Shown here in pieces: positions 14,620 through 59,464 of a DNA stretch of 64,000 nucleotides. Under the pieces are notes generated by a model. That model saw only the letters and a program-made list of their open reading frames with translations, was not told the origin of the DNA and made no database searches. The stretch is from a virus: the IMG/VR virus record IMGVR_UViG_3300032326_000853, positions 9,456 to 73,455 of that record. One strand, written 5' to 3'. Position 1 is the first letter of the stretch. Each line of letters starts with the position of its first letter. A program made the position numbers and the translations under genes.

Positions 14620-14814
14620 ATGAAGATTAGAGAATTAACAGAAGCATCGGGTTATATTGCCAGAAATGCCAAAGAAGCAAAAGATCCGCGCTGGAGTACA
14701 AGTTTAACAGTTGATGTTAAAACTGATACAATGCGTAAGCAATTGTCTGCGTTCTTTCCTACATCTGCACCCGAAGACGGCCAAACACAAATTAAAGAGA
14801 ACAGTTCAAAATGA
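14620..14814 (+). CDS. Small protein with N-terminal MKIRELTE motif
   Basis: RBS present. The N-terminal motif is shared with other proteins in the window. Confidence 0.4.
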   Translation: MKIRELTEASGYIARNAKEAKDPRWSTSLTVDVKTDTMRKQLSAFFPTSAPEDGQTQIKENSSK

Positions 14815-15212
14815 GCAAACAATTAAACGAAGGCTTGGGTAGCCTTAACGTAGAAGAACAATATGACGTTAGTCGTATTCAGCAGTTGGCAGGTATTGCC
14901 AATGCTTCAACTGTAGCAGGTACTCCTGTTGCTGAAGATATCAATGACGATATCAGCAATGAAGAAGCTCGTGAACTTGCTGGTCAATTAGAGACGCTAG
15001 TGCATGCCTTGGACAACGCCTTAGGCGATATTGAACATTTAATTCGTACCAAGCTGCCAAGAGAATATCGTTCATTAGAACACTACACATTAGCACATAT
15101 CAAGGCTGGCATTGGCGGCTATGGCTATGCTGAAAACCGTATGGCAAAATCCTTGCATGGTTTGGTAGAAGATTTAATTGACTACAGCGAAGGCGACGAA
15201 GATACATTATGA
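14811..15212 (+). CDS. Hypothetical acidic protein
   Basis: Overlapping ATGA start. Asp/Glu-rich. Confidence 0.4.
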   Translation: MSKQLNEGLGSLNVEEQYDVSRIQQLAGIANASTVAGTPVAEDINDDISNEEARELAGQLETLVHALDNALGDIEHLIRTKLPREYRSLEHYTLAHIKAGIGGYGYAENRMAKSLHGLVEDLIDYSEGDEDTL

Positions 15213-15496
15213 AACAGTACCGCGTCACTTCTGAAATGATCAACCCCAAGGGCAATGATCCAACAGTGCCTGATGCGTATATAGATCCTGATGAGCTGGC
15301 AAGGATCACGGCCCTGTCAGGTATTCCCAACCTGTGGTCAGCTAATGTTCCCGAATCCTCTAGCCCAGTTGATGGTTCAGTAGGCACTGAAAAAGGCAAG
15401 TATCAACGTGATAACAATATAACACCAGGATCAGCTGCCTGGTTTAGACTTTGGTTTAGTTTACCTTTCTTAACAGGAGAGAAGTCGCGTGAATAA
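15209..15496 (+). CDS. Hypothetical protein
   Basis: Overlapping start (ATGA). Confidence 0.35.
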   Translation: MKQYRVTSEMINPKGNDPTVPDAYIDPDELARITALSGIPNLWSANVPESSSPVDGSVGTEKGKYQRDNNITPGSAAWFRLWFSLPFLTGEKSRE

Positions 15497-15658
15497 ATGT
15501 AAGCCTGGTTGCCCTTGTGGCTGCGAGCTTGATGGCCGCGAATGTAGATGCCACGATGTTGAGCCCTTAAAAGAGCCGGAACCAAATCCCAATCAGTATC
15601 CAGTCTACCCCGAAGATGACGGGTATGATCTTCCTAGAAATCCCTACAGCCAAGTGTA
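15488..15658 (+). CDS. Small Cys-rich peptide (CKPGCPCGCELDGRECRCH), GTG start
   Basis: 56-codon ORF not in the ORF track. GGAGAG lies 7 nt upstream of the GTG. Eight Cys in the first 22 residues. Fills the gap to the next gene exactly. Confidence 0.3.
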
Positions 15659-15661
15659 AAA

Positions 15662-19552: not shown

Positions 19553-19572
19553 TTGGCCGCTTAAATAGGCGT

Positions 19573-23573: not shown

Positions 23574-23708
23574 TAATAAATTTTATAATTTTATAACAAT
23601 GCAATAAAGGGTAGTGGTAAGTGAAAGTCTAATACTGAAGTTGCTTGTAGTACTAGAGCAGGTATATTGATGCGTTCCCCCACTGTAAGTACTATACAGG
23701 GAACAAAT

Positions 23709-24398
23709 ATGAAACGAACAATTTATTTTGATACAGTAAGCAGTCAGTTCAGCGTAGACGCTAAGATTGCAATCAGTGACATTACCAACAGCACCATTGA
23801 CACTGTTGATTCGTGGCCAGCTCTTATGAGCCTGCTTTGCCAAGAATTGTGTCATGGTGAGGCGTCTGAAAATGATATTACATTAGTAATCTTTAATAAA
23901 GATACACTGTCATTTCCGGGTACTACAGTAAATGAAATTGTAGATGCACTAACAACAATTTCAACTATAGCAGGACCAAAAAAAGTAAGTGTAGGAATTT
24001 TAGTAAATGACAAATGCGAACAAAAGTTTATACAAGATTTAAAGAAAAGCAACATAAGCGGCATCGTACCAAACTATAAGAGTTTTGGAGATGCCGATTT
24101 CTTTGACGCCTTGAATACCTTACTGTCTGGAACTACGCACTGGCCCGAAGCATACATTGTGCCTAGAGTAAAGTTATCTACTAGAGCCACAGTGGAATAT
24201 GGTATTAGACTAACTGGGCGCCAAAGAGAAATCTTAGCCTTGGTGGCCAATCGCGGTTTGAGCAACAAAAAGATTGCACAGATTTTAAATATCAGCGAAA
24301 GCACTGTGAAAGTGCATATCAGTTCTATCCTAAAAGCATATGGAGTACGGAATAGGACACAGTTGGCCTTAGCCGGAAACAAAGGATTGCATGCGTGA
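23709..24398 (+). CDS. LuxR/FixJ-family HTH transcriptional regulator with uncharacterised N-terminal domain
   Basis: C-terminal GerE-type HTH 'LTGRQREILALVANRGLSNKKIAQILNISESTVKVHISSILKAYGVRNRTQLA'. The N-terminal 170 aa lack receiver-domain acid-pocket residues. Confidence 0.75.
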   Translation: MKRTIYFDTVSSQFSVDAKIAISDITNSTIDTVDSWPALMSLLCQELCHGEASENDITLVIFNKDTLSFPGTTVNEIVDALTTISTIAGPKKVSVGILVNDKCEQKFIQDLKKSNISGIVPNYKSFGDADFFDALNTLLSGTTHWPEAYIVPRVKLSTRATVEYGIRLTGRQREILALVANRGLSNKKIAQILNISESTVKVHISSILKAYGVRNRTQLALAGNKGLHA

Positions 24399-33194: not shown

Positions 33195-33231
33195 TGTAGT
33201 TACCGTAAAATGCAGTTCAGGTAAATATCTG

Positions 33232-34455
33232 ATGCGTTTACGTGAACTATTATCAGAAGTCAAAATTGACAACAAAGACGGGGCAGGTGCAGTTCCTTTT
33301 AATCAAGACATTGATTACTTTGGACTACGCACCACAATGCGTCCAAGTACATTCTTGCGATTGGCTGCTCCGCTGGGACAAGAACACAGCGCCAAGCTAG
33401 AAAAATACATTGCTGACGGTGGTGCAATTGGCGCCCCATTCTTAGACATTAAAATCCCCCAGGAATGGGACGACGGCGACTTTTCTAAGCCTGCACAAGT
33501 TGCGGGACATGAAGGTCGCAATCGCATGACTGCTATTAAAAAGCTAGAAGGCGATGCGCCTGTTGAAGTACATATTTTACCACGTGGCGGATATCGTGCT
33601 AGAGACATTACTCCAGAATTCAAAGCCGCCCTGGCCAAGAGCTTGTATGCAGAAAAAAGTACATCGTTAGTGACAGGCCCGCTATTTGAAGATGAACTAG
33701 AAGAAGGATGGAAAGACACTATGGCCAACTTGGCCATTGCTGGTGGCATTGCTGCCGGTGGTATAGGAGGCATGGCTGCAAAACAGGCGGCGCAAGATTA
33801 CTTTAAAGAGCCTACTGCGGCAGTAGCTCAGGCAACAACAAAAGCACCAGAAGTTCCAAAGACATTTGCACAAGCCAAATCTGCACCAAGTGCGCCTGCT
33901 GCCGTTAAAGCAGAGCCCAAACCTGAAGTACAGAAAAAACTCAATGTACAACCTATTACTGGCAATCCTTTGGAAGCTACGTTATTAAAAGTTGCCAAAT
34001 CTTCTGGCCTACAAGGTTCCGAACTTGCGGCATTTATGGCTCAATGTGCTCATGAAACCTTGGACTTTAAACGTCTGGTAGAATTTGGCGGTAGCTTAGA
34101 CTTCCGCAAATATGATCCAAAATATGCACCCAAGAAAGCCAAGGCCCTAGGCAACAAGCAAGTGGGAGATGGTGCCAAATACAAAGGTCGTGGCTTTATT
34201 CAAATCACTGGCCGTTACAATTACAAACGTGCAGGGGAAGCACTGGGCTTAGATTTAGTAAATCATCCAGAATTAGCCGAAGATCCAGCAACAGCAGCCA
34301 AGATTGCTGTTTGGTTTTGGAAGCATAGAGTGCAACCCAACGTAGACAACTTTAAAAATACCACTGATGTTACCAAGCAAATTAACCCCGGCATGCGAGG
34401 ATTAGAACAGCGCAAGGATAACTTTGCTGATTACATGCAAGTTGCCATGCGATAA
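33232..34455 (+). CDS. Glycoside hydrolase family 19 (chitinase/lysozyme-like) peptidoglycan hydrolase. It has a 250-aa N-terminal extension and an internal Ala/Gly-rich hydrophobic segment.
   Basis: GH19 motifs 'FMAQCAHETLDF', 'YKGRGFIQITGRYNY', 'AVWFWKHR'. N-terminal MRLRELL motif. Segment 'MANLAIAGGIAAGGIGGMAAKQAA'. Confidence 0.7.
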   Translation: MRLRELLSEVKIDNKDGAGAVPFNQDIDYFGLRTTMRPSTFLRLAAPLGQEHSAKLEKYIADGGAIGAPFLDIKIPQEWDDGDFSKPAQVAGHEGRNRMTAIKKLEGDAPVEVHILPRGGYRARDITPEFKAALAKSLYAEKSTSLVTGPLFEDELEEGWKDTMANLAIAGGIAAGGIGGMAAKQAAQDYFKEPTAAVAQATTKAPEVPKTFAQAKSAPSAPAAVKAEPKPEVQKKLNVQPITGNPLEATLLKVAKSSGLQGSELAAFMAQCAHETLDFKRLVEFGGSLDFRKYDPKYAPKKAKALGNKQVGDGAKYKGRGFIQITGRYNYKRAGEALGLDLVNHPELAEDPATAAKIAVWFWKHRVQPNVDNFKNTTDVTKQINPGMRGLEQRKDNFADYMQVAMR

Positions 34456-42590: not shown

Positions 42591-42617
42591 TTCTAGCTAT
42601 CGTATAAATACGTTACT

Positions 42618-44612
42618 ATGAAATTACGTGACGTTAGCCCCCAAATAACCCTATTAGCTGAGCAACAGCTAGACGAAATTAACATGAGCCCGTCAAGCCT
42701 AAAGCAATTGGCTTCGAGAATCAATGCCCGTGCTGGTATGGAATTTGAAATGATTGTACCGGGCGTAAGTGAGGAAGATGGTGATTTAGAACCCAACTAC
42801 GGCGACGATCAACGCACACGTAGCTTTAGTGATATCGAAGACTTCTTTAACGATGGTGACTACAATAGCCGTAACGATGTTCAACGCTTGATCCAAAAAC
42901 TACAAGAAGCGTATTGGGAATGGGAAATGGAAAAGATCGATAACGATTGGAGCAATGACGGCGAAGATTACATTCGAGACTACATTAACAACAATGAGTG
43001 GAACCAAGACGACAAAATTCGCGAACACTTAGAAGCCATGGGCTTAGATGAAGATGCCATTGAAGCCGCAATTGAAGCTGGCAACAACGCACCAATTTAC
43101 ACAAAGTCTAGCGATCTTAAAGCCGCTCGTGAAGCAGACGAAAACTACAACAATTGGGTAGAAGCAGACCGTGCGGCTGATGATGAACTTGATGAATTAG
43201 TGTCAGAAACATGGAGCGAACAAAGCGGTGTTTATGAAGAAGCATTGGACCAGTATCGTGAAGAAAATGCAGGCACACACGATGAAGATGACTTCTTAGA
43301 AGACAATGGCCTACGTTACATGAGCGATATTTCAAATGAATATGACATCAGCTGGCCTTACTGGAGTAGTCCCGGTGGCGGTGAAGTCAATGCAGAAAGT
43401 GTTGCCGAAGACTTTGCCCAAGCAGTTGGTCGTACAGTAAAAGCCAGTGGCTCTTACCATTCGGGCAGTGTAGCTCGTCCTGACGCCAGTAACTCACACT
43501 ATGTTGTAGAACCTGACGGTAGCTTGGACCCGGACGACAGCAATGACGGTGGCTTAGAGTTTGTAAGCCCAGCATTGCCCATTGGCGAACTGCTAAGTGA
43601 CTTAGACAAAGTTGCCAAGTGGGCCGGCACGTATGGTTGCTACACTAATGAGTCAACTGGCTTGCACATCAACGTCAGCGTTGAAGGTTGGAGCGGTGAC
43701 ATGGGCAAGTTAGATTATGTCAAGTTGGCATTATTAATGGGTGACAACTATATCCTAGACAAGTTTGGTCGTGCTGGCAATACCTATTGCAAAAGTGCAA
43801 TGAACGAAATTAAAAATCGTGTAACACAACGTCCAGAAGATGCAGCCGCACTGCTAGAGAAAATGAAGTCTGGCCTAGACAGTCTTGCAAGTAAAGCAAT
43901 TCACTCGGGCGTTACCAACAAGTACACCAGTATCAATACCAAGAGTGGTTATATTGAATTCCGCTCACCTGGTGGCGACTGGTTAGGCGAGTATGCAGCC
44001 GATCCAGGATCAATTACCAATACCCTGTTGCGATTTGTTGTAGCATTAGATGCCGCAGTAGACGCAGAAAAATACAAACAAGAATACTTGAAAAAGTTGT
44101 ATGCAATCTTACAACCTAAAACTCACAACGACACTATGGCTTACTTTGCACAGTATGCCGCAGGTCAAATGCCCAAGGCCGCACTAAAGAGTTTTATTCG
44201 TCAGGCACAATTAGAGCGTCAAGGTAAGAAACCGCCGCCAGAACAAAAAGAACCAAATTGGTATATCTCAGACAAAAACACTGGACAAATAATTCAGAAG
44301 TACTATGCTGACAATGCCAGTGATGCTTATGAATACCTACAGCGTTGGAAGGCACAAAACGGCGGTGGTGATCACTTACAGTATGGTAAGATAATGCCGG
44401 GACAAGAACCTGGACAAACAGCCACGCAACGAACAGGTGGTAACGAGTGGACTGGACAATGGCTAATTAAAGACGGCAGTGGTCGAGTACTACATAGTTT
44501 TGGCGGTATAGGAAACAGCCAAAGCGATGCAAATCGTTTTGCAACTCGCTGGTTAGCACAACAAGGTTACAGTTATGGAACTGAAATTGAAGTAGTTCCA
44601 GAAATGAGATAA
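42618..44612 (+). CDS. Acidic N-terminal domain fused to an amidoligase-like domain (Amidoligase_2, GS-like fold; tentative)
   Basis: 'GGLEFVSPALPIGEL...GCYTNESTGLHINVSV' resembles the E-x-VSP and tGlHVHv signature blocks of phage amidoligases. N-terminus MKLRDV. Confidence 0.4.
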   Translation: MKLRDVSPQITLLAEQQLDEINMSPSSLKQLASRINARAGMEFEMIVPGVSEEDGDLEPNYGDDQRTRSFSDIEDFFNDGDYNSRNDVQRLIQKLQEAYWEWEMEKIDNDWSNDGEDYIRDYINNNEWNQDDKIREHLEAMGLDEDAIEAAIEAGNNAPIYTKSSDLKAAREADENYNNWVEADRAADDELDELVSETWSEQSGVYEEALDQYREENAGTHDEDDFLEDNGLRYMSDISNEYDISWPYWSSPGGGEVNAESVAEDFAQAVGRTVKASGSYHSGSVARPDASNSHYVVEPDGSLDPDDSNDGGLEFVSPALPIGELLSDLDKVAKWAGTYGCYTNESTGLHINVSVEGWSGDMGKLDYVKLALLMGDNYILDKFGRAGNTYCKSAMNEIKNRVTQRPEDAAALLEKMKSGLDSLASKAIHSGVTNKYTSINTKSGYIEFRSPGGDWLGEYAADPGSITNTLLRFVVALDAAVDAEKYKQEYLKKLYAILQPKTHNDTMAYFAQYAAGQMPKAALKSFIRQAQLERQGKKPPPEQKEPNWYISDKNTGQIIQKYYADNASDAYEYLQRWKAQNGGGDHLQYGKIMPGQEPGQTATQRTGGNEWTGQWLIKDGSGRVLHSFGGIGNSQSDANRFATRWLAQQGYSYGTEIEVVPEMR

Positions 44613-44613: not shown

Positions 44614-45876
44614 ATGAAAATACAAGATTTAATTGAAGGTTGCAAACACGGAGAATACTATTGCTCCACAGACAAAAAGTGGAAGTGCCGTACTGGTCCT
44701 AAGCAAAGTAGAAAAGTATCCGAAGGTGACTTAAACGAATTTGCACCTGGTGCCGGCGATGGTGATGGCGACGAAGATCCATACCGATATCCCAAGCCAG
44801 AGTCGTATCGTCGTAGTATAGATTTCTTTGGAAAGTTTGAAGCTGATCATTTTGATCGAGAAGATATGAATGACGCCACTGGTGAATTCAAAGGCTATTG
44901 GGGCAAAACACAAATTGCCTATTTCAAGTTTGATAATCCAGCAAAGACTGGCAGTGATGATCCAGGCATGGGCTGGTACTATGAGCCCAACGACATCAGT
45001 GACGACGACAGTGACACTGGTGCAACACCTGCTGTTGATACATCTGCACAACGCAAGCAACAAGAATTAGGCATGATTGATGCGTTTTTAAAGTCAGGGA
45101 AAAAGCCTAATCCGGGCAGTCCAATACATGCCCTAATGAAGAAACATGGTCTGGCAGAAGGCAGTTTAGAAGAAATAGACCGTAGAGGATTCTTAAAAGG
45201 CCTTGGTGCGGCAGTGGCGGGTGCAGCCGGAGTCAGCAACGCCAAAGCGTCTGAAAAGAAGTTTTCAGACTTTATTACCGATCCTGCCGATAAAGAAAAA
45301 TATATAGAGTTAAGAAAAAAAGCCGATCGTATTTTGGCAATATCTATGGTAAATTCATCACTTAAAGTGGCCGCCTATGCCGAAATGGCCAAACTAAAGG
45401 ATTTTAAGAAAGAACTGGCCAAGAAATATAATATTGACATCAATCTTAAAGAAGAAGATATGGCGGAAGCACATCCTAACAGCAAAATCTACGACAAGTG
45501 CTGGGATGGTTATAAGAAAGTCCCGGGCAAAAAGCGTGGTGAAAAAGGCTCATGTGTAGAAGAAACTTATGATGGTGATGAGTTCTTTGAAGCCTACGGT
45601 GTATTATGGTTCAACGAAGATGAGCAGTTAGACGAAGCCGAATACCAAGGACGTAGTGTTCCACTAGGTAAGCCCATGCAAGGCGATGTTAAAAAGTTCA
45701 AAGTATATGTAAAAGATCCTTCAACTGGCAATGTTAAAAAAGTAAACTTTGGCGATCCAGACATGAAGATCAGAAAGTCTAACCCTGCGGCTCGTCGTAG
45801 CTTCCGTGCTAGACACAACTGTGACAACCCAGGTCCAAGAACCAAAGCACGTTACTGGTCCTGCCGTAAGTGGTGA
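44614..45876 (+). CDS. Hypothetical protein with 'LNEFAPGAGDGDGDED' motif and an internal twin-arginine-like signal (RRGFLKGLGAAVAGAAGVSNAKA)
   Basis: Internal Met 'MKKHGLAEGSLEEIDRRGFLKG...' would give a canonical Tat signal peptide. C-terminal Lys-rich region. Confidence 0.45.
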   Translation: MKIQDLIEGCKHGEYYCSTDKKWKCRTGPKQSRKVSEGDLNEFAPGAGDGDGDEDPYRYPKPESYRRSIDFFGKFEADHFDREDMNDATGEFKGYWGKTQIAYFKFDNPAKTGSDDPGMGWYYEPNDISDDDSDTGATPAVDTSAQRKQQELGMIDAFLKSGKKPNPGSPIHALMKKHGLAEGSLEEIDRRGFLKGLGAAVAGAAGVSNAKASEKKFSDFITDPADKEKYIELRKKADRILAISMVNSSLKVAAYAEMAKLKDFKKELAKKYNIDINLKEEDMAEAHPNSKIYDKCWDGYKKVPGKKRGEKGSCVEETYDGDEFFEAYGVLWFNEDEQLDEAEYQGRSVPLGKPMQGDVKKFKVYVKDPSTGNVKKVNFGDPDMKIRKSNPAARRSFRARHNCDNPGPRTKARYWSCRKW

Positions 45877-51063: not shown

Positions 51064-51176
51064 CTTGGCAATCCTTTAAGTTATAGTGCTATTTATTAGA
51101 ATGACCAGAAAAGTGGTCCTATTATACTAGCGGTAAATAGAGTGAAGGTTAATGTGCAAAAACAATAAATATATCT

Positions 51177-52241
51177 ATGAAACTACGTGAATTAATTATG
51201 ATGGAAGACGGCGAAGCCGCGGTGGCAACCACGTCTAGCGACATCGCTACAGTAGCTTATCCTCTATTTGTACGTGGTCGAAACAATAAAGAAAAACGCA
51301 AAAACGCACGTGCCGCAGTTGGTCAAAAATATGTACCTGGCCCCAAGGGAATTGGCCAGGGTGTGTTTGAAAATGAGTTAACGGAAAGAGCCAGTCAGTT
51401 GCTGTCTGCACAAGACAGAAATGGTGTCATTACAGTTGTTGTACAAGCACCCGACGGTACCAAACGTTCGCTAGCAGATGAAAATCCTCGCTATATTAAC
51501 CAATGGTTAATGAAGTATGACCTAAGCCTACCAAGAAGCATTACTAGTAAATTTGTAGGTGTAGGCGAAGCACATGTACTAAATCACGATAATGTTATCT
51601 ATAGACTAGATCGTGAGAATCCCATGAGCGATACAGAAGTTGCAGTACTAGGTGGTGCAGGCCGTTATAGCTTAAAGGCATTGCGTGATAAAGCTCGCAA
51701 AGAAGCCGCCGAGTTGGCACAAGACCTAAGCATTGAGCATGGAGGCGCATTTAGACGCAGTGCCGAAAACATCAAACAGTTAACAAACACAATCAATACA
51801 ATCGTTGCTGCCTACAATGAACTGGCAAGATTAAGACGCAAAGGTGGCCGCGGTAGCCGTGGTATCACAGACGAAGACACAAACTTTATTCGCGAATGTA
51901 TTCGTGTAGTAGAACAAGCCACGCAGAATTATAGATTAATGGAAGCTCGTGCAGTGGAGCCTGATGCACAAGGTTATGCCCAGGACAGTTTAACTAGTCC
52001 CCAATACACAGTGGTAGTAAATACACCAGGTGACTTGGATTGGTACAAAATTGGCATGTACTGGCATGATAAAATAGTTGATCCCCATGAATTTGGGCAA
52101 GACGACAGTGACACTGTAATGGTGGCACAGGGACCAGAAGAATACAAAGAAATGATGGCCAAGATTAAACGAATGGGCCTAACATATAAAGAAATTGGCG
52201 GTACGACTGATCAGCCAGAAATTCACAGTAAAACTTATTAA
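51177..52241 (+). CDS. Hypothetical protein with N-terminal MKLRELIMME motif
   Basis: 354-aa ORF. N-terminal motif shared with 33232, 14620 and 42618. Confidence 0.5.
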   Translation: MKLRELIMMEDGEAAVATTSSDIATVAYPLFVRGRNNKEKRKNARAAVGQKYVPGPKGIGQGVFENELTERASQLLSAQDRNGVITVVVQAPDGTKRSLADENPRYINQWLMKYDLSLPRSITSKFVGVGEAHVLNHDNVIYRLDRENPMSDTEVAVLGGAGRYSLKALRDKARKEAAELAQDLSIEHGGAFRRSAENIKQLTNTINTIVAAYNELARLRRKGGRGSRGITDEDTNFIRECIRVVEQATQNYRLMEARAVEPDAQGYAQDSLTSPQYTVVVNTPGDLDWYKIGMYWHDKIVDPHEFGQDDSDTVMVAQGPEEYKEMMAKIKRMGLTYKEIGGTTDQPEIHSKTY

Positions 52242-52250: not shown

Positions 52251-55200
52251 ATGATTCGCATTAGACTAATCAACGAAGGTAAAGTTGTCAAGCAAATTAC
52301 CAGCCGCATACACGAAGGTGTTGTACTTGAACAAATTAAAAATTACAAGGATCCGTACGACACTATTCAAGTTGTCGAAGGTGAATTGTCAGAGGATGCC
52401 AAGAGCATGTTACAGCATGTTGCTCGTAAAATTGTACCAGCAGCCATGGCAGCAGGTGTTGCACTAAGTGGTGCAGGCAATGCTCAAGCACAAGGTAGTG
52501 CCAATCCCAACTACCCAGGTCTAAATCACTCAGTTGGTCAGCACATGGTTGACATTTTCAGTCCTAATTACAAAGAGATGATGCGTCAACGCGAACATCG
52601 TCGTAATACAGAACGTCAAGTTTGGAATGCTGAACAAGATGAAATTCGCAAGCAACGTGTGGCTGATGCTCGTGCTAGAGTAAGACCAGCACCGGGGCAA
52701 CAGCATGTGGTTTATGATCAAAGTCGTATCAGTCAAGACGGTAAGTCTTACATCATCTACGGCATGGACAACAAGGTTCGTCGTATTCCAGTAAACGGTA
52801 CAGAATATATGCCAGGTGATAGTCAACGCTTACCGCACTATATTACCAGTGGGGGCGGTGTATTTTATGTACGCCACCCACACATGAACGAAAGCATTAG
52901 AGAGTCCGCAGAGAACAAAGCCGAGCATGATAAAGGTTATAGTGATGCTAGCCAAGGTAAATCAAAGAACCCTTACAATCCTGGTAGTCCAGCGGCAGCC
53001 GCTTACGATGCGGGTCAACAAGCATACAGGCGTCACTTTTCAGAAGCACATCAGATTCCAGGCAAAGACGAACACTATGCATTGCGTAATAACATCTGGA
53101 CCTTGTATGACGGTGATGAAATAGTACATGAATACAGACCCGAGCGTGGCGAAGTTGTTGGTGCTAAAAAGTTATTGGCTCGATTCGACGATGAAGGTTA
53201 TGATGTTACTCACGTTGTAAGCCCAATGGGTGTTGCCACTTACTTGTACGGCAAACCAGAAGAAGACATGGACGAAGGCTACACAGTCACACGTGGCATT
53301 GATCGAGAGCGTTATCAAGAGCGCCCAGGTTTAGAAGGCCCATTCTCTACTCGCAGTGGTAAGGTTGTGTATTACGATCCAAAAGAAGGCAAGTATTACG
53401 ATCCCGAAACTGACTTTTACATTGGCCACGAAGACTATGCCAAAATGGACGAAGAAGCGACACCAGGTGTAGTCAAAGCAGCCGCTGGTTTAACCCTGGG
53501 TGGAATAGCAGCCGCAGGTGCTCCGGCTCTTATTGGCATATTAGGCCCAGTAGTTGGTATCCCATTTGCCGCATACGCCGCTTATAGTGCCGCCAAATTG
53601 GGCATGAAGGGTGTAGAAAAGCTATGGGACATGGCCTCTGAAAAGTTGGGTGGCGATGATAAAGTTGCACAATACGCCAACGCTAAGTTAGCTAAATTAC
53701 CGCCTGATCAGGCCAGGGCAGCCGCGGCAGTAGTTAAACAAATTGGTGAGAGCAAGCAAAGTGTAGCCGAAGGCGATCCAAATGCCACTGTGGGCACTAT
53801 TTCAAGTACAGGTACCAGTGGTGGTACAGGTCGTACACAGTTTGCACCAACAGGCAAAACAACCAACGCCAAGTTCAACAAGAACGGTCAAATTGAATTA
53901 GACACCGAACAAGAAGATGATGGTTCTGTGAACTTAGATGCTGATGCTGTTAAGCAACTACAACAAGCCGGCGTTAAAATTAAAGAAAGCGAAGACAGTC
54001 CAGTGGCCAGTGCCATTGCTCGTCGTATCATGAGCCAACGTTTAGATTTGCTACAAAATCACGGACCACAAAAAGTTATGGCTGCAATTGATGATGTTGC
54101 TGACTTTGTTGGTGACACCGAAGAAATTGGTTCTAGTGATGTAAGTGCTTGGGTAAAACAAGTTGAACAAACATTAGCTGGCATGGGCGAGTCTGTAAAC
54201 GAAGGTACTGATACCCTGGAAGGTATTCTAAGCAAGTTCAGCGCAGACTATGCCAAGTTCAAAGCAGGTGGTGACATTGATGAGAACCAAGACTTCTTTG
54301 ATGCCTTATATGAGTACTTCTTTGACGAAATGCCATATGGTGTTAAGAAAGCCCGCGATGGCGATCCTTACGAGTGGATTACTGATCGTTTAGATCAAGA
54401 GTCAGGCATTGCGCCAGTTGCAGAAGCTGAAGAAGATGAAGCTACTCCTGGTGATCAAGCTGCCGCAGATCAAAACATTATCATGCAAATTCGTAAAGCA
54501 AGTGACTATGAAAAGCCAACTAAGATTAAACTAGCAGATGGCAGTGAAAATGTTATTGCTCCAAACATTGCCAAGTTAATCCTTGCCAAGTTTGACAAAA
54601 TGAAACCAGAAAGCAAGGCCCTGCTACAAGATACACTAAACACTGAAGAAGGCTTCAAAGAAATTTTGGCTTATTTTGGTGGTGGTGTACGTGAACAAGC
54701 AGTTGCTCGTGCAAGTAAAGTCATGGCACACGCATTAGAAGAAGCTGGCTTAGCTGATATACGAGCAAGAATGGATGCAAGACGCGACCATCCCGAAAAG
54801 CAGTCCCCTAATCCAACTACTCCAATGCCTCCAGTGCCTCCATATGTTGCACCAGCAAAGCAACAGGAACTAAAGGCCGGAGACATCATTGGTTACAGAC
54901 CCAAGAATGCTAAAATGGTACCAATCAAGGCCAAGGTATTAAAGTTGCTAAGTGGCGACAGAGCCATGGTCAGTGTATCAAGCCCAACTATGATTGCTCG
55001 CAACAATGATAGCCCTGTTATTACCATTGGCCCATTGAGCGATCTTGATATTCAAAATCCATACAAAGCAATAGCGAGAGAGTCTGTTGTAAATGAAGCC
55101 GCTGCGGATTGGTTGCCAGCATATAATGGATTATTAAAAGGTGACGGCGAGCCAGCAAGGGGTGGGAGCAGCCAAAATCTTAATTGGAAAAAATCAATGG

Positions 55201-56429
55201 CCTTAGTTGCCAAAGATACTGGCATCACTGACTGGAACCAGTTGATGAATTTTGTACAACAGTATGCCTCAAATAGCCATAATAAAGCCAGCAGAGAGAA
55301 TTTGGAGAGATGGCAACAGCTTACTAATGAAATTGCTTCATTAATGAAGCAGGCTCCTACCATGGATGAAATGCGAGCCGCAATAAAGCAACAAGATGCT
55401 GACAAACATCAACAGAACTTGACTGCTATTCAACAGCAGTTAGATTTAGAAAATGCTCCGCTACAACACGAAATGTCTGTGCAGGCCCTAATAAACAAGG
55501 CTGAATTAGATAAAGCTGACCAGAAGGAGTTGTTAGAACTTGACATGGAAGCACGCCTGGCCATTATGAAAATCAAGCAGGACATGGAACTTGATGCCAA
55601 GGAACGCTTGACTCAAATTGAACGCGAAATTGAAGATCGTAAAGAACGTGAAGATGTTCGCAAGCATGAGTTGGAAATGGCACAAGCTGGCTACAAGCAT
55701 GAGCTTGCTGTTATCAATGCCTCAGCTGAAGGTGAATATAAGAAAGCTAAACTAGAAGCTGATTATCAAATTCAAATCAAACAGCTAGACAACATTGACA
55801 ATGCAGGCGAGCGTCAAAACAGACTAGATCAAATCAACACTGAAAAAGCAAAACAACTTGAAATCATTGATGCTGAAACAAAAGCTCGAGTTGAAGTAAT
55901 GCAAAAAGAAGTTGATGTTGAAAAACAACAAAGTGACATCAAGATCAACCAAGCATTCATGATGACGTTAAACCCAATTTGGGGTGCGGCATTGACTGCG
56001 GCACATGCGGCAGGTTCTACATGGAAAGCAGGTATTAACAATTTAAATAAGGCGTTAGCAATGCTATCGAAACCAGTTATGCCAACAGCACAGAAAGAAA
56101 GTCGTTATGATCGACGCGATGCTTATCAACGTGATTATGATTCAAGTGTAGCAGGTATGGGCAAGCGTCAAAGTCTAGCTTATCAACTTGACGGTGGTGC
56201 CAATGACGAAGGTTGGGATCAACCTGAACGTTCGTATCAAGTACCACAACAAACATACTATATTCGCTTCAAGGATTCTGGCAAGGTATACAAACAAAAA
56301 GGTGTACCCAAGAGCTTTGCCAACAAAGCAGCCGCGAATGCCTATGCGCTGGCCATGATCAAGAATAATCCTGCACATCAGGACAACATATTGTTGACAG
56401 TGTCCAGTGAAGACAAACCCTCAGCATAA
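52251..56429 (+). CDS. Giant (1392-aa) protein with several features. It has an N-terminal signal-like Ala/Gly segment and a central multi-pass hydrophobic block. It has a long C-terminal coiled coil. It is a candidate virion ejection or tape-measure-like protein.
   Basis: 'RKIVPAAMAAGVALSGAGNAQAQG', 'AAAGLTLGGIAAAGAPALIGILGPVVGIPFAAYAAYSAA', then a Glu/Lys/Gln-rich heptad region (aa 1050-1250). Confidence 0.45.
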   Translation: MIRIRLINEGKVVKQITSRIHEGVVLEQIKNYKDPYDTIQVVEGELSEDAKSMLQHVARKIVPAAMAAGVALSGAGNAQAQGSANPNYPGLNHSVGQHMVDIFSPNYKEMMRQREHRRNTERQVWNAEQDEIRKQRVADARARVRPAPGQQHVVYDQSRISQDGKSYIIYGMDNKVRRIPVNGTEYMPGDSQRLPHYITSGGGVFYVRHPHMNESIRESAENKAEHDKGYSDASQGKSKNPYNPGSPAAAAYDAGQQAYRRHFSEAHQIPGKDEHYALRNNIWTLYDGDEIVHEYRPERGEVVGAKKLLARFDDEGYDVTHVVSPMGVATYLYGKPEEDMDEGYTVTRGIDRERYQERPGLEGPFSTRSGKVVYYDPKEGKYYDPETDFYIGHEDYAKMDEEATPGVVKAAAGLTLGGIAAAGAPALIGILGPVVGIPFAAYAAYSAAKLGMKGVEKLWDMASEKLGGDDKVAQYANAKLAKLPPDQARAAAAVVKQIGESKQSVAEGDPNATVGTISSTGTSGGTGRTQFAPTGKTTNAKFNKNGQIELDTEQEDDGSVNLDADAVKQLQQAGVKIKESEDSPVASAIARRIMSQRLDLLQNHGPQKVMAAIDDVADFVGDTEEIGSSDVSAWVKQVEQTLAGMGESVNEGTDTLEGILSKFSADYAKFKAGGDIDENQDFFDALYEYFFDEMPYGVKKARDGDPYEWITDRLDQESGIAPVAEAEEDEATPGDQAAADQNIIMQIRKASDYEKPTKIKLADGSENVIAPNIAKLILAKFDKMKPESKALLQDTLNTEEGFKEILAYFGGGVREQAVARASKVMAHALEEAGLADIRARMDARRDHPEKQSPNPTTPMPPVPPYVAPAKQQELKAGDIIGYRPKNAKMVPIKAKVLKLLSGDRAMVSVSSPTMIARNNDSPVITIGPLSDLDIQNPYKAIARESVVNEAAADWLPAYNGLLKGDGEPARGGSSQNLNWKKSMALVAKDTGITDWNQLMNFVQQYASNSHNKASRENLERWQQLTNEIASLMKQAPTMDEMRAAIKQQDADKHQQNLTAIQQQLDLENAPLQHEMSVQALINKAELDKADQKELLELDMEARLAIMKIKQDMELDAKERLTQIEREIEDRKEREDVRKHELEMAQAGYKHELAVINASAEGEYKKAKLEADYQIQIKQLDNIDNAGERQNRLDQINTEKAKQLEIIDAETKARVEVMQKEVDVEKQQSDIKINQAFMMTLNPIWGAALTAAHAAGSTWKAGINNLNKALAMLSKPVMPTAQKESRYDRRDAYQRDYDSSVAGMGKRQSLAYQLDGGANDEGWDQPERSYQVPQQTYYIRFKDSGKVYKQKGVPKSFANKAAANAYALAMIKNNPAHQDNILLTVSSEDKPSA

Positions 56430-56447: not shown

Positions 56448-56475
56448 AATTGCCGCGTAATGCGGCAATTTCTTT
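56448..56475 (+). terminator. Terminator hairpin AATTGCCGC-GTAAT-GCGGCAATT followed by TCTTT
   Basis: 9-bp perfect stem after the stop of the giant gene. Confidence 0.6.
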
Positions 56476-56500
56476 GACTACAGCTTGTATAAGTACACGC

Positions 56501-57991
56501 ATGGATGTAATACTTTTAAACAGTGGGCCCGAAGATCTTGGTCGAATTTCGCCTTATAGAACCTTGGGCGCATATAAAATTGCACACTACACAAGGTCTG
56601 CAGGCTACAATACTCAGGTAATAGATCATTTGATGTTCTTATCCGAGGACCAGCTGCGTGCCTGTTTGCTAAAATTTGTTACTAATGAAACCTTGGTAAT
56701 TGGCGTTAGCACAACTTTCATGAGAGACCCTTCCCGTCCCTTTAATGAACCCTCGCTGCCTGCACATGTTATTACTGTATTAAACGAAATCACTGATCAA
56801 TTTCCCAATATCAAATTGGTTTTTGGCGGTTACGGTACGTATTTGGTCACAAGTACAAGAAGCACTGACTTTATAAAGAATCCATATGCTGTTGTTCAGG
56901 AGTACGGCGAAGATACTTTTGTTGATATCCTGAATCATTTAAGCGGCACAGGTGATGAGCCTCCTTGGGTCATTGCCAAAGTAACACCCGGTGGTCCTTA
57001 TAAAAAGATGATCAAGCAATACACAGGTCCTGTTGCTGTGAGATTTAATATTGAAACTGATGCATTTCAATTTACTGCACAAGATGCAGTTATGCCCAAC
57101 GAAACTTTACCAATTGAAATCAGCAGAGGTTGTATCTTTAAATGCAAATTTTGCAACCATTTATTGTTGGGACGAGGCAAACTTGACTACCTAAGAGATT
57201 TTGAATTGGTGCGCAACGAATTGATCAACAATTACGAACGCTGGGGCACTACCAATTACTATGTCATATGTGACACATTCAATGACACAGAATATAAAAT
57301 GAAAGAATGGCACAAAATGGTCACAGCATTGCCATTCAAGATAAATTGGACTTCGTATTTGCGAGCTGACTTATTGAATAGATTTGAAGACGTACCTTAT
57401 ATGCTGGCCGAGACTGGGTTATTTTCATGCTTTCACGGCATTGAAAGTTTCGGCGAAAAAGCATCTGTTACAATTGGCAAAGGCTGGAGTGGCAAAAGCG
57501 CCCGAGAATTCCTACCAAAATTGTATCACGACATTTGGAAAAAAGAAGTATTTCAGACCTTGAGTTTTATTGTGGGCTTGCCAGGGGACACGGCCGAAAG
57601 CATACTTGACACTGGTAGATGGTTCAACAGTAATAAAATGTACAACATTGCTTGGCATACCCTGGGTATCATGCCCAACAGTCCTAGACATGCCAGCGAA
57701 TTTGAGCGCAACGCTGAAAGCTATGGCTACACATTTACTGAAAACAATAAATGGAAAAATGAACACTGGACCATGGACACGGCTGCAGAGTTTGTTAAGA
57801 CAAAATTAGGCCCGTTAAACGGTCCCAATAATGCCAAGCACGGCAGCTGGAAAATCATGCAGTTGAAGCAATTTGGGTACACACGATCTAATTTTCAAAA
57901 GGAAAACAACATATTTTGGAACATAGCCGACCAATATCAGCGGGGACAAGTGTTTATTGATCAATACGTGACTAAATTACTTGCACTTTAA
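56501..57991 (+). CDS. B12-binding-domain radical SAM enzyme (paralog of 9886..11472)
   Basis: 'GCIFKCKFCNH' CxxxCxxC. Collinear similarity with 9886..11472 throughout, e.g. 'YYVICDTFND' vs 'YWLLDDTFND' and 'SFIVGLPGDT' vs 'QFIIGLPYET'. Confidence 0.7.
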   Translation: MDVILLNSGPEDLGRISPYRTLGAYKIAHYTRSAGYNTQVIDHLMFLSEDQLRACLLKFVTNETLVIGVSTTFMRDPSRPFNEPSLPAHVITVLNEITDQFPNIKLVFGGYGTYLVTSTRSTDFIKNPYAVVQEYGEDTFVDILNHLSGTGDEPPWVIAKVTPGGPYKKMIKQYTGPVAVRFNIETDAFQFTAQDAVMPNETLPIEISRGCIFKCKFCNHLLLGRGKLDYLRDFELVRNELINNYERWGTTNYYVICDTFNDTEYKMKEWHKMVTALPFKINWTSYLRADLLNRFEDVPYMLAETGLFSCFHGIESFGEKASVTIGKGWSGKSAREFLPKLYHDIWKKEVFQTLSFIVGLPGDTAESILDTGRWFNSNKMYNIAWHTLGIMPNSPRHASEFERNAESYGYTFTENNKWKNEHWTMDTAAEFVKTKLGPLNGPNNAKHGSWKIMQLKQFGYTRSNFQKENNIFWNIADQYQRGQVFIDQYVTKLLAL

Positions 57992-58018
57992 TAAATACAT
58001 TCGATAAGGATTCATAAT

Positions 58019-59464
58019 ATGAAATTTACAGACCTAGGGGACAAGGGCCCAAATATTAAACTGGCTTTTGTTAAAGAAGCCAAGTTAAATGAATTTGCAC
58101 CTGGTGGCGGGGATGACCGCGAGCCCAATGAAGAAGAAATCTTGCGTCAATTGGCCGCACAATGGTGGAATGGCACAGAACAACAAATGGCCAAAGCACA
58201 ACGTACATTAGAAACAATGGGTTGGGAAATTGGACAAGATGAATCCGGTGATGACGATGCAGGTGTATTCTTAATACGCCCAGGTGATGTAAATGGTGAC
58301 ACATACATTGCATTTAACCACAGTGATTTAGATTTAAACGAAGGCTGGAAAGATAAGTTGGCAGCGGCTGCGTTAGCTGGAACAATGGCCCTAGGTGCCG
58401 CAGGCGCACAAGCCAGAGTTTCACCTGGTGACGATCCCAGTATCAATCGTTTAAATGGCAAACCTGTTGCTACACAAGTTGCGCCGGCTGCATCACAGGC
58501 TGTGCAACCTGGTGCTTCATTACCAGGTAAAAATCTACAAGCAGTTGATAACATAGAAGGAAACAAGGCCAATGGTTATACCATCACACAAGATGGCAAT
58601 TCCTATGATGTTAAGGTAGTGCCAAAAGGTTCTCCTACTCCCAGGGGCGGCAAAATGATGAAGGTAACTCAAGCACAAGTTGGCGAGCGCGGCATTGGAA
58701 ATTATGTAGTATATTTGCTAAACAATGGGACTGCATATCTTTATATGGGCGAAAGCGTAAATGAAGCTTCACCGCGAGTTGATTCGCTTGTAACCGACGC
58801 ACTAAAAATAATGCAGGGTTCAAGTGTAAATGATGCTGTGGCCGCACTAAAGACTGTGCTGGGCAATAGAGAATACAACAGCCGTCGTGGACATTATAAT
58901 TTCTATGTCAAGCAATTGGTTGATATGTCAGGACAGCAAGGCATGGCGGAAGCACGTGACGGCGAGGACTTTGAGCCAGCATTGTCGGGCTTGAAAAAAG
59001 AGTTTGACAAGTTCGCAAACAGTGATCGCGCAAATCGAGATGTCGCTGACAGTGACATTGACGATGAGGATGTTGCTAACGACATGGGTCAAGACAGCGG
59101 CGATGACTTAGATGAAGCAACATTGGCACAAATGCGTGACTACTTTAATCAACCAGACGACTCGATGAAAGTAAACCGTGCGCCAGGCGCACCGGGAAAG
59201 CCTGCCGCAGGTATCCCACACGAAATACAAGCCTTGGTCAACAAGATGTATCATTCAGGAAAAGTTACACCGCAAGAGTTTGAAATTTTAAGAAAGTTTC
59301 AACAGAAAACAAAAATCAATGTGGGCATTAAAGAAGCTGATAAAAATCCCTATGCCATAGGTATGGCACAGGCCATGAAAAGCACAGGCGATAAACCGCC
59401 ATTAAAGAAAAGCACTATCAACAAGGCGCATGAAATCGCCCGTGCTGTTAAAAAAGGTGAATAA
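58019..59464 (+). CDS. Hypothetical protein with 'KLNEFAPGGGDD' motif and internal Ala/Gly-rich signal-like segment
   Basis: 'KLAAAALAGTMALGAAGAQARVSPGDD'. Acidic C-terminal region. Confidence 0.5.
   Translation: MKFTDLGDKGPNIKLAFVKEAKLNEFAPGGGDDREPNEEEILRQLAAQWWNGTEQQMAKAQRTLETMGWEIGQDESGDDDAGVFLIRPGDVNGDTYIAFNHSDLDLNEGWKDKLAAAALAGTMALGAAGAQARVSPGDDPSINRLNGKPVATQVAPAASQAVQPGASLPGKNLQAVDNIEGNKANGYTITQDGNSYDVKVVPKGSPTPRGGKMMKVTQAQVGERGIGNYVVYLLNNGTAYLYMGESVNEASPRVDSLVTDALKIMQGSSVNDAVAALKTVLGNREYNSRRGHYNFYVKQLVDMSGQQGMAEARDGEDFEPALSGLKKEFDKFANSDRANRDVADSDIDDEDVANDMGQDSGDDLDEATLAQMRDYFNQPDDSMKVNRAPGAPGKPAAGIPHEIQALVNKMYHSGKVTPQEFEILRKFQQKTKINVGIKEADKNPYAIGMAQAMKSTGDKPPLKKSTINKAHEIARAVKKGE

What the first reader, a model, noticed from the sequence alone, without database searches (positions are those of the whole stretch)
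14620..59464. Family of proteins sharing an N-terminal M-K-[LI]-R-[ED]-L motif and an 'LNEFAPGxGD' box: candidate capsid-targeting or prohead-protease processing signals
Unrelated proteins start MKIRELTE (14620), MRLRELLSE (33232), MKLRDVSP (42618), MKIQDLIEG (44614) and MKLRELIMME (51177). Two of them (44614 aa 39-55; 58019 aa 22-40) contain almost identical 'DLNEFAPGAGDGDGDED' and 'KLNEFAPGGGDDREPNEE'. The [LI]-x-E pattern ('IRE|L', 'LRE|L', 'LNE|F') matches the cleavage specificity of T4-type prohead proteases. In those phages short N-terminal targeting sequences load internal proteins into capsids and are then removed. The carriers here include a peptidoglycan hydrolase, a giant coiled-coil protein's neighbours and an amidoligase-like protein. 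That would be a set of ejected effector or virion proteins.
Basis: inference. Interest (0 to 1): 0.7.

Follow-up and report, generated by a model that had tools for sequence, protein, structure and literature searches.

The report
Capsid-targeting tags on phage cargo proteins
A giant T4-related phage puts the same short N-terminal tag, copied from its own capsid proteins, on many unrelated proteins, probably to load them into the phage head and trim them there, though no virion data yet confirm this.

Summary
Six window proteins, not five, start with M-[KR]-Φ-x-[DE]-Φ, usually followed by Φ-x-E at residues 8-10. LNEFAPG occurs exactly twice.

The N-terminal motif is far beyond chance and locked to Met1. 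Across the window and 134 related loci it occurs 76 times against 5 expected, with 6 internal copies in 584,000 residues.

It closely resembles proven T4 prohead propeptides: gp24 MAKINELLRE|S, internal proteins MKTYQEFIAE|A, Alt MELITE|L. It also resembles the N-termini of capsid, protease and post-portal core proteins of Rak2/Atu_ph07-type jumbo phages. By DNA polymerase and gene order, that is the group this phage belongs to.

A subfamily that includes 51177 carries a near-copy of the capsid protein's own junction segment, L-x-E|SATAGATSAGNIAT.

LNEFAPG is not an N-terminal signal. It is a portable junction box (Φ-[NK]-E-F-A-P plus a Gly/Asp/Glu-rich stretch) found at residues 8-968 in over a thousand mosaic proteins. 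A second box, Φ-x-E-G-W-K plus an Ala/Gly-rich signal-peptide-like segment, behaves the same way.

No prohead protease lies on the roughly 80-kb source contig. Its existence is inferred from relatives.

The likely cut is after the second Φ-x-E, not after 'IRE'. This is a new variant of a known mechanism, and no virion data confirm it.

The parts
14620..14814 (+). 64-aa tagged protein. The tag MKIRELTE covers aa 1-8 (nt 14620-14643), with candidate cleavage LTE|A.
   Evidence: Translation. Register-A motif with Φ-x-E ending at residue 8. TAAATA at 14598-14603, followed by GAGGG.
33232..34455 (+). 407-aa tagged protein. Tag MRLRELLSE covers aa 1-9 (LSE|V). An N-terminal module of unknown function spans aa ~10-154. 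The LEEGWKD box plus Ala/Gly-rich segment spans aa 156-190 (nt 33697-33801). A GH19 muramidase/chitinase domain spans aa 263-406.
   Evidence: (PF00182, E 1.9e-16). TAAATA lies 4 nt before the ATG with no Shine-Dalgarno sequence (SD, ribosome-binding site).
42618..44612 (+). 664-aa tagged protein starting MKLRDV. There is no Glu at residues 8-10; the nearest Φ-x-E sites are LAE15 and LDE21. Amidoligase_2 domain at aa 257-452.
   Evidence: PF12224, E 8e-11. TATAAATA at 42603-42610, 7 nt before the ATG. Orthologues in L056, L059 and L060 keep MKLRD.
44614..45876 (+). 420-aa mosaic protein. Tag MKIQDLIE covers aa 1-8 (LIE|G). The LNEFAPG box plus Gly/Asp-rich stretch spans aa 40-55 (nt 44731-44778). 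A Tat-like RRGFLKGLGAAVAGAAG segment spans aa 187-205 (nt 45172-45228). A widespread C-terminal module spans aa ~315-420.
   Evidence: TAT_signal 22.4 bits against a cut-off of 22.7; phrog_7595. Its start is coupled to the stop of 42618.
51177..52241 (+). 354-aa tagged protein. Tag MKLRELIMME covers aa 1-10. It is followed by a degenerate copy of the capsid-protein junction motif (DGEAAVATTSSDIATVAYP, aa 11-29, nt 51207-51263).
   Evidence: AATAAATA ends 5 nt before the ATG with no SD. In L060 this same N-terminal part is fused through LNEFAPG to the 44614-type module.
58019..59464 (+). 481-aa mosaic protein. Tag variant MKFTDLGD covers aa 1-8. The LNEFAPG box plus acidic stretch spans aa 23-40 (nt 58085-58138). 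Folded module 1 spans aa 38-104. The LNEGWKD box plus Ala/Gly-rich 'AQA|R' segment spans aa 106-133 (nt 58334-58417). Further modules lie at aa 245-311 and 365-481.
   Evidence: (the structure model shows the boxes in low-confidence linkers). AATAAATA at 57990-57997.
52251..56429 (+). 1,392-aa neighbour that shares the 'MGESVNE...' module with 58019. Its N-terminus is MIRIRLINE|G, and it has a hydrophobic segment at aa 419-448. It may belong to the same cargo set.
59477..60124 (+). Untagged GH19 paralogue of 215 aa, the ordinary endolysin. It is the contrast to the tagged GH19 protein at 33232.
   Evidence: 36% identity to 33232 aa 265-404; PF00182.

Best explanation
**Proposed mechanism**
- The N-terminal motif M-[KR]-Φ-x-[DE]-Φ-(x)-x-E is a T4-type prohead-targeting propeptide.
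- It imitates the N-terminal propeptide of the phage's own capsid-family and prohead-core proteins.
- During late infection it would bring otherwise unrelated proteins into the assembling prohead core. Candidate cargo includes a GH19 wall hydrolase, an amidoligase and several mosaic proteins.
- A gp21-type prohead protease would then cut after the Φ-x-E at residues 8-10. The mature proteins would stay in the head and be ejected with the DNA.
- The LNEFAPG box and the Φ-x-E-G-W-K box are portable junctions between modules of mosaic proteins. Each carries the same Φ-x-E core in a disordered linker.
- These boxes most likely serve as internal cutting sites for the same protease. Each mosaic protein would then act as a small polyprotein.

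**Shown**
- The motifs, their position-specificity and their protein-level conservation.
- Their modular mobility.
- Their similarity to proven T4 propeptides and to head proteins of the related jumbo-phage group.
- Their association with late-promoter-like elements.

**Inferred**
- The presence of the protease in this genome.
- Packaging, cleavage and ejection.
For: **1. The motif is locked to Met1 and far above chance.** 49 of 61 unique tags (80%) have [LIVMF]-x-E ending at residues 8-11, against 26% of untagged N-termini.

**2. It matches T4 precedents read from the T4 records.**
- IPII and IPIII: MKTYQEFIAE.
- Alt: MELITE|LFDE, with the mature peptide annotated after residue 6.
- gp24 MAKINELLRE, gp22 MLKEQLIAE, gp21 MNEPQLLIE, gp23 ...FLTE65|A.
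- Published function: PMC8442874, PMC9026906, PMC5694885.

**3. The lineage belongs to a group with a gp21-type protease.**
- The DNA polymerase of close relatives of the window is 42-48% identical to those of Phosso, Atu_ph07, GAP32 and CBB.
- The order DnaJ, ClpA-like, tail fibre ... DNA polymerase is shared with Atu_ph07.
- This group has gp20, gp21 and gp23 orthologues and a gp55-type late sigma factor (PMC7824862).
- Atu_ph07 gp204 is 44.5% identical to a cyanophage gp21-type protease.
- That protease sits next to the capsid gene in all 36 long head-module loci.

**4. Head proteins of that group carry the same N-termini.**
- Capsid protein: MKMSELLES.
- Post-portal small protein: MILRELFY, MLLREF, or MKLTELF in Atu_ph07 gp199.
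- Protease..YLRE...

**5. Some tagged proteins copy the capsid protein's junction segment.**
- Capsid proteins have L-x-E followed by SATAGATSAGN[IV]AT in 17 of 17 unique sequences.
- Small tagged proteins and 10 internal copies carry Φ-x-E followed by xA[ST]AGATSxGx[IV]A[ST]V.
- 51177 carries a degenerate copy.

**6. Tagged genes look like late genes.**
- TAAATA is depleted in the window: 25 copies against 52.5 ± 6.9 expected.
- ATAAATA occurs 5 times against 13.9 expected, and every copy lies just upstream of a gene start on the correct strand. These include the starts at 42618, 51177 and 58019.

**7. The boxes have the right features for accessible cutting sites.**
- P3 is aliphatic in 86 of 88 EF[AS]P contexts and in 141 of 141 EGWK contexts.
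- Both boxes fall in low-confidence linkers of the 58019 model.
- They precede many different modules, at positions from residue 8 to 968.
Against: - No head gene or gp21-type protease lies in the window or in the roughly 15 kb of flanks that complete the 79.7-kb contig.
- No virion proteomics exists for any carrier. No cultured phage encodes these mosaic proteins beyond isolated modules.
- 42618 and 58019 lack a Glu at residues 8-10.
- About 10% of unique N-termini in the (selected) loci fit the loose motif. These include nucleotidyltransferase-like and 5'-nucleotidase-like enzymes, which is a lot of cargo for one head.
- Conservation of E-F-A-P-G goes beyond what T4 gp21 is known to need. 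This points to an added or different role for that box.
- Some proteins have cytoplasm-type enzyme domains on both sides of the EGWK hydrophobic segment, so its role is unclear.
- Φ-x-E is a short pattern that is common by chance.
Confidence: 0.6

Rival explanations
1. The boxes (LNEFAPG with its Gly/Asp-rich stretch, and Φ-x-E-G-W-K with its Ala/Gly-rich segment) are only flexible connectors or recombination joints. They would allow modules to be shuffled between mosaic proteins and would not be cut. The N-terminal tag could still be a targeting signal.
For: - The boxes sit at module borders and precede at least 8 different modules.
- They lie in low-confidence linkers of the structure model.
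- The two window copies share 20 of 21 nucleotides. Six identical codons have P≈0.003 given codon usage, which hints at DNA-level exchange.
- E-F-A-P-G is conserved beyond what a gp21-type site needs.
Against: - Across loci the codons vary synonymously while the peptide is kept, so selection acts on the protein.
- The near-invariant aliphatic P3 and Glu P1 in both boxes are not needed for a mere spacer.
Confidence: 0.3
2. The carriers are envelope-targeted late proteins, not head cargo. The Ala/Gly-rich segment after EGWK, and the RRGFLK segment in 44614, would act as internal signal-anchor, Sec or Tat signals. These would place the C-terminal parts (GH19, LysM) in the periplasm. The N-terminal tag would serve some cytoplasmic role.
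For: - The segment looks like a signal peptide: a Lys-rich start, about 16 hydrophobic residues, then AQA|R.
- It is truly N-terminal in some proteins, for example MDEGWKS....
- It is followed by LysM or GH19 domains in several proteins.
- 44614 has a borderline TAT_signal match.
Against: - The segment is internal in 89% of cases, with a median position of residue 241.
- Some proteins have nucleotidyltransferase and HD domains on either side of it.
- Its hydropathy is below the usual transmembrane threshold.
- This reading does not explain why the tag resembles capsid and core propeptides.
Confidence: 0.15
3. The N-terminal motif is a recognition tag for another machine, such as the phage-encoded ClpA/B-type AAA+ protein with DnaJ. 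It would mediate timed unfolding or degradation rather than head targeting.
For: A Clp_N/AAA+ protein, DnaJ and peptide deformylase are encoded just left of the window and in related contigs. Clp-family genes are typical of this phage group (PMC6102473).
Against: No known Clp N-degron matches the motif; this point rests on my own knowledge and was not tested. The motif is shared with the capsid protein, protease and post-portal core protein and with T4 propeptides.
Confidence: 0.07
4. The motif reflects an mRNA-level or translation-start requirement of leaderless late transcripts, not a protein signal.
For: TAAATA lies 4-7 nt before the ATG, with no Shine-Dalgarno sequence, at 33232, 42618 and 51177. 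Promoter-adjacent starts are enriched among tagged genes: 23 of 76 against 157 of 2,413, Fisher p 9e-10.
Against: - 53 of 76 tagged genes lack the adjacent promoter, and many have SD sequences.
- 157 promoter-adjacent genes have unrelated N-termini.
- Arg is encoded by CGT or AGA and Leu by CTA or TTA, so conservation is at the amino-acid level.
- Blocks of about 30 early-type small ORFs in the same lineage have no tags.
Confidence: 0.04

Closest known systems
[quoted passage not shown]
   Same: - A short peptide (6-10 aa) locked to the N-terminus on otherwise unrelated cargo.
- It ends in [L/I]-x-E, which gp21 cuts: MKTYQEFIAE|A and MELITE|L.
- The genes sit behind late promoters.
- Cargo includes enzymes that are injected with the DNA.
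   Different: - The register and residues differ: M-K-Φ-R-[DE]-Φ-x-E against M-K-T-Y-Q-E-F-I-A-E.
- Many more carriers per genome region.
- The carriers are large mosaic proteins with extra internal junction boxes.
- Packaging and cleavage are not shown here.
Propeptides of T4 gp24 and gp23 and of the capsid protein of Rak2/Atu_ph07-type (group 2.2) jumbo phages
   Same: - The sequences are nearly the same: T4 gp24 MAKINELLRE|S and group-2.2 capsid protein MKMSELLES against window 33232 MRLRELLSE.
- The capsid segment L-x-E followed by SATAGATSAGNIAT is copied into the small tagged proteins and, in degenerate form, into 51177.
   Different: The carriers here are not capsid-shell proteins. The exact cleavage site of the group-2.2 capsid protein has not been mapped. 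RaK2 offers only gel-mobility evidence (PMC3622015).
Processed inner-body and ejection proteins of phiKZ, 201phi2-1 and SPN3US
   Same: Many head-internal proteins are processed after Glu by a gp21-related protease. Paralogues share identical N-terminal stretches, and several sites occur per protein.
   Different: Those proteases prefer S/A/G-x-E or A-x-E, and the propeptides are often over 100 residues long. They belong to a different jumbo-phage group (group 1).
Polyvalent proteins of phages and conjugative elements (Iyer et al. 2017, cited in PMC7824862)
   Same: Large multi-domain, shuffled proteins that are thought to be delivered with the DNA.
   Different: The domain repertoire is different. 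The conserved junction boxes and the N-terminal tag are not part of that definition.

Membership tests
T4-type capsid-targeting / prohead-protease propeptide | A short peptide fixed at the extreme N-terminus | tested here: met
   76 N-terminal against 6 internal occurrences. Shifted registers are not enriched.
T4-type capsid-targeting / prohead-protease propeptide | Ends in an aliphatic-x-Glu site within about 6-20 residues | tested here: met
   49 of 61 unique tags have it ending at residues 8-11. In the window it is met by 14620, 33232, 44614 and 51177, and not by 42618 or 58019.
T4-type capsid-targeting / prohead-protease propeptide | Carried by proteins that are otherwise unrelated | tested here: met
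   GH19, Amidoligase_2 and unknown modules. All-against-all BLAST finds no similarity beyond the short boxes.
T4-type capsid-targeting / prohead-protease propeptide | The genome encodes a gp21-type prohead protease and a gp23-type capsid protein | tested here: inconclusive
   Neither is on the roughly 79.7-kb contig. Both are inferred from the closest cultured group.
T4-type capsid-targeting / prohead-protease propeptide | Late expression | tested here: inconclusive
   T4-late-promoter-like TAAATA or TATAAATA lies just upstream of 14620, 33232, 42618, 51177 and 58019. The motif is otherwise depleted. No transcript data exist.
T4-type capsid-targeting / prohead-protease propeptide | Resembles the propeptides of the phage group's own head proteins | tested here: met
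   Capsid protein MKMSELLES; post-portal protein MILRELFY; the capsid junction segment copied into tagged proteins.
T4-type capsid-targeting / prohead-protease propeptide | The tag is needed for packaging and is removed in the head | not testable with these tools
   This needs virion proteomics or reporter packaging experiments.
Sec/Tat signal peptide (for the EGWK Ala/Gly-rich segment and RRGFLK) | Located at the N-terminus of the translated protein | tested here: not met
   The median position is residue 241, and only 11% lie within the first 40 residues. P3 codons are not start codons.
Sec/Tat signal peptide (for the EGWK Ala/Gly-rich segment and RRGFLK) | A charged start, a hydrophobic core and an A-x-A end | tested here: met
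   GWKDK, then LAAAALAGTMALGAAG, then AQA|R. TAT_signal scores 22.4 bits against a cut-off of 22.7 in 44614.
Polyvalent proteins | Very large proteins with several enzymatic conflict domains, linked to DNA delivery | tested here: inconclusive
   The mosaic proteins combine CTP_transf_like, HD_4, GP88, DUF6321, GH19 and LysM modules. Most window members have 400-700 residues, and delivery has not been shown.

The most novel reading that the evidence does not exclude
The mosaic proteins may be head-packaged polyproteins that the prohead protease cuts at the Φ-x-E junction boxes. Cutting at Φ-x-E|G-W-K would expose a Sec- or Tat-type signal peptide that is hidden and non-functional in the precursor. 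Ready-made fragments, for example those with GH19 or LysM domains, would be injected with the DNA. The new host would then re-export them to the periplasm before any phage gene is expressed.
Probability: 0.1. Interest if true: 0.85.

Novelty: new variant of a known kind. Interest (0 to 1): 0.6.

Why it matters
If the tags work as in T4, they give a sequence-only way to list the injected "first-strike" proteins of a large, uncultured branch of T4-related jumbo phages. These phages are common in fresh and marine waters.

The results also suggest that these phages enlarge their cargo by copying the capsid protein's own propeptide onto new genes, and by stringing modules together with cleavable joints.

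The tag and the boxes could also serve as tools for loading foreign proteins into large phage heads.

Tried and rejected
**Searches that found nothing useful**
- Nucleotide search of cultured phages found nothing.
- Protein searches found only isolated small modules in cyanophages and pelagiphages. The small tagged protein found none.
- The supplementary file held for the Atu_ph07 virion proteome paper had no entry for gp199, gp204 or gp215.
- A fold search of the 58019 model against viral structures gave only uncharacterised proteins.
- Four literature searches (of six run in all) found no description of such tags outside T4 and the phiKZ-like phages.

**Looking for the protease**
- Walking outward from the window is limited to window proteins. 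The flanks L136 and L137 complete the contig and hold no head genes.
- PHROGs scans of 40 window proteins and Pfam scans of 9 found no prohead protease. The only peptidases are an S8 subtilisin and a phrog_16701 peptidase.
- The Atu_ph07 region syntenic with the window has no tagged genes.

**Explanations rejected**
- Internal translation starts at the EGWK box: P3 codons are TTA, CTA, GTA and ATT, which are not start codons.
- Leaderless translation as the cause of the motif.
- Radical SAM peptide modification of the boxes: the window's enzymes look like B12-dependent methyltransferases and a twitch-domain enzyme, with no peptide-maturase signature.
- The LNEFAPG box in head-module loci: absent from all 80.

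Full report
**1. What is in the window**

The window is almost all + strand, about 43% G+C, and belongs to a phage. Collagen-like tail-fibre genes lie at 213-5786 and a GH19 endolysin at 59477-60124. It has no close match among cultured phages.

Domain searches confirm Glyco_hydro_19 in the 33232 protein and Amidoligase_2 in the 42618 protein. The other carriers have no known domain, apart from a borderline Tat-signal match inside the 44614 protein.

**2. Is the N-terminal motif more than chance?**

Yes. I pulled in 134 loci from viral contigs that encode relatives of the 58019 and 44614 proteins and made crude gene calls.

- The strict motif M[KR][LIVM][RQKT][DE][LIVMF] sits at 76 of 2,489 gene starts. 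Position frequencies predict 5.2.
- It occurs only 6 times inside proteins across 584,018 residues.
- A looser form, M[KRN]-Φ-x-[DE]-Φ, is present at 190 of about 1,985 unique N-termini against 28 expected.
- The same pattern shifted by one or two residues is not enriched.
- In 49 of 61 unique tags, an aliphatic-x-Glu triplet ends at residues 8-11. Only 26% of other N-termini have this.

The full signal is therefore M-K-Φ-R-[DE]-Φ-(x)-x-E. The 58019 protein starts MKFTDLGD, a very common variant, so six window proteins carry the tag.

Tagged genes cluster together. L006 and L089 are examples. Blocks of about 30 small early-type genes in the same lineage have none.

**3. What the tag resembles**

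I read the T4 sequences from the T4 records.

- IPII and IPIII start MKTYQEFIAE.
- Alt starts MELITELFDE. Its mature peptide is annotated after residue 6, and a TATAAATA late promoter lies upstream.
- gp24 starts MAKINELLRE, gp22 MLKEQLIAE and gp21 MNEPQLLIE. gp23 has FLTE65|A.

The literature states the following.

- The 10-residue IP peptide is the capsid targeting sequence and is cut off by gp21. Residues 4 and 7 serve targeting; residues 8 and 10 serve processing (PMC8442874; PMC9026906).
- All T4 internal head proteins use such a peptide. Alt is cut at ITE-6 and LTE-619 (PMC5694885).

The window's MRLRELLSE is one substitution pattern away from gp24's INELLRE.

A T4-like cyanophage, S-RIM8, has a gene starting MKSYNEFISE. 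It lies next to a mosaic protein that shares modules with the 58019 protein, inside the structural operon.

**4. Which phage group is this?**

- The source contig is about 79.7 kb. The window plus the flanks L136 and L137 cover it, and no head gene or prohead protease is present.
- Close relatives of the window (76-95% protein identity) carry a T4-type DNA polymerase a few kilobases to the right.
- That polymerase is 42-48% identical to those of Sinorhizobium phage Phosso, Agrobacterium phage Atu_ph07, GAP32, CBB and other Rak2-like jumbo phages.
- Atu_ph07 shares the gene order DnaJ, ClpA-like, tail fibre ... DNA polymerase.
- This group (group 2.2) has T4 gp20, gp21 and gp23 orthologues and a gp55-type late sigma factor (PMC7824862; PMC6102473).
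- Atu_ph07 gp204 is 44.5% identical to the cyanophage gp21-type protease.
- In 80 uncultured head-module loci of this group, the protease lies beside the capsid gene in every case.

A gp21-type protease in the window's genome is therefore a reasonable inference, but I did not observe one.

**5. Head proteins of that group carry the tag**

- Some capsid proteins start MKMSELLES.
- The small gene just after the portal, at the position of T4 gp67, starts MILRELFY, MLLREF or MLLNEF. In Atu_ph07 gp199 it starts MKLTELFNPLTE.
- The proteases start with ..YLRE...
- In 17 of 17 unique capsid sequences, the segment before the conserved RR-x-x-P reads L-x-E followed by SATAGATSAGN[IV]AT.

The same 14-residue string, again preceded by aliphatic-x-Glu, follows the tag directly in a family of 60-76-residue proteins. 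An example is MRIRDIISE-VASAGATSSGSIATV. It also occurs at 10 internal positions in larger proteins. The window's 51177 protein has a degenerate copy, MKLRELIMME-DGEAAVATTSSDIATV.

So these proteins imitate this N-terminal segment of the capsid protein, where the L-x-E is a candidate maturation site. This is the strongest argument that the tag is a prohead signal and that the cut falls after the second Φ-x-E. The exact cleavage site in the group-2.2 capsid protein has not been mapped. RaK2 offers only gel evidence of processing (PMC3622015).

**6. Late promoters**

- TAAATA is strongly depleted in the window: 25 copies against 52.5 ± 6.9 expected.
- ATAAATA occurs 5 times against 13.9 expected. 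All five lie just upstream of a gene start on the correct strand, including the starts at 42618, 51177 and 58019.
- At 33232, 42618 and 51177 the element ends 4-7 nt before the ATG, with no Shine-Dalgarno sequence. These messages may be leaderless.

This arrangement is enriched among tagged genes (Fisher p 9e-10) but does not explain the tag. 53 of 76 tagged genes lack it, and 157 genes that have it start with unrelated residues. Codons for the conserved residues also vary.

**7. The LNEFAPG box**

In relatives the box is internal: residue 676 of 1,248 in L007, 981 of 1,480 in L073, and 583 of 801 in L061. In L060 it joins the N-terminal part of a 51177-like protein to the 44614-type module.

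- A database search found 1,301 relatives of the 58019 protein. The listed ones are mosaic, with the box at residues 13-539 and sometimes present twice.
- Over 88 unique contexts, P3 is L, I, V or M in 86, and P2 is mostly N or K.
- The nine residues after the box are 69% G, D or E.
- Codons vary synonymously between loci, so the peptide itself is under selection.
- The box precedes at least eight different modules. It is absent from head-module loci.

**8. The EGWK box**

The 33232 and 58019 proteins share L-x-E-G-W-K-D followed by an Ala/Gly-rich segment that ends AQA|R.

- A profile of this roughly 40-residue unit finds 393 clusters among 1.84 billion representative proteins. The median position is residue 241, and 11% of copies are near the N-terminus.
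- The residue two before the Glu is aliphatic in 141 of 141 cases. Its codons are not start codons.
- In about ten clusters the tag runs straight into this box, for example MKINEIITESTE-LEEGWKSKLGAAALAG. A few proteins simply start MDEGWKS..., like an ordinary signal peptide.
- LysM or GH19 domains follow it in some proteins. Others have nucleotidyltransferase and HD domains on either side of it.

Its role is unresolved.

In the structure model of the 58019 protein (mean pLDDT 58), both boxes lie in low-confidence linkers between better-defined modules.

**9. Verdict**

- The N-terminal motif is best read as a variant of the T4 capsid-targeting propeptide, modelled on the capsid protein's own N-terminus.
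- The boxes are portable junctions that share its Φ-x-E core and may be internal cutting sites.
- This is a new variant of a known mechanism in an uncultured branch of T4-related jumbo phages.
- The protease in this genome, packaging and cleavage are all inferred.
- I put confidence at about 0.6 for the whole model. It is higher for the tag and lower for the boxes as cleavage sites.

Noticed in passing
window 45915-47966: A phage-encoded membrane protein with a CHASE2 sensor domain (E 2e-41) fused to an adenylate/guanylate cyclase domain (E 1e-19). It lies directly after the tagged 44614 gene.
   Followed up: no
window 9883-11472, 56501-57991, 61483-62943: Three radical SAM enzymes. Two are paralogues (28% identity) resembling B12-binding methyltransferases, and one is a twitch-domain radical SAM enzyme (NF033640, 300 bits). 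Two of them flank the 58019 gene.
   Followed up: partly
window 9872-9877, 19562-19567, 33222-33227, 42605-42610, 51166-51171, 60212-60217: Six genes have TAAATA ending only 4-7 nt before the ATG, with no Shine-Dalgarno sequence. This suggests leaderless or near-leaderless late messages. The same layout is very common in related contigs, at 180 of 2,489 gene starts.
   Followed up: partly
window 23670-24398 and 24391-25101: Two adjacent paralogous proteins (36% identity) whose C-termini match sigma-factor region-4-like helix-turn-helix families.
   Followed up: no
window 37252-42590: A run of five genes for proteins with signal-peptide or lipoprotein-like starts. Two of them (38771 and 40677) share internal repeats. 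Two others match PHROG families of unknown function with E-values of 1e-71 to 1e-77.
   Followed up: no
window 5808-9022: Directly after the tail-fibre genes lie a subtilisin-like S8 peptidase, a nitroreductase and a 4HBT thioesterase. This is an unusual set for a tail module.
   Followed up: no
window 54186-54203 and 58748-58765: The giant 52251 protein and the 58019 protein share the 7-mer MGESVNE at the start of a common module. This may be another junction carrying V-N-E.
   Followed up: partly
L147 12800-14100: At least five consecutive small ORFs are each preceded by nearly the same 20-nt sequence, TTTATATTGA(C/G)(C/G)TGGTC, right before the ATG. It looks like a repeated early-gene cassette signal.
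   Followed up: no
L200 (T4) gene 68: The T4 prohead core protein gp68 contains P-L-N-E-F-I-V. This is the same L-N-E-F core as the LNEFAPG box. I did not check whether gp21 cuts there.
   Followed up: no
L137 746-4281 (left flank of the window): DnaJ, peptide deformylase and a ClpA/B-type double-AAA+ protein lie just upstream of the tail fibres. The same trio occurs in L089, and DnaJ plus ClpA occur in Atu_ph07.
   Followed up: partly
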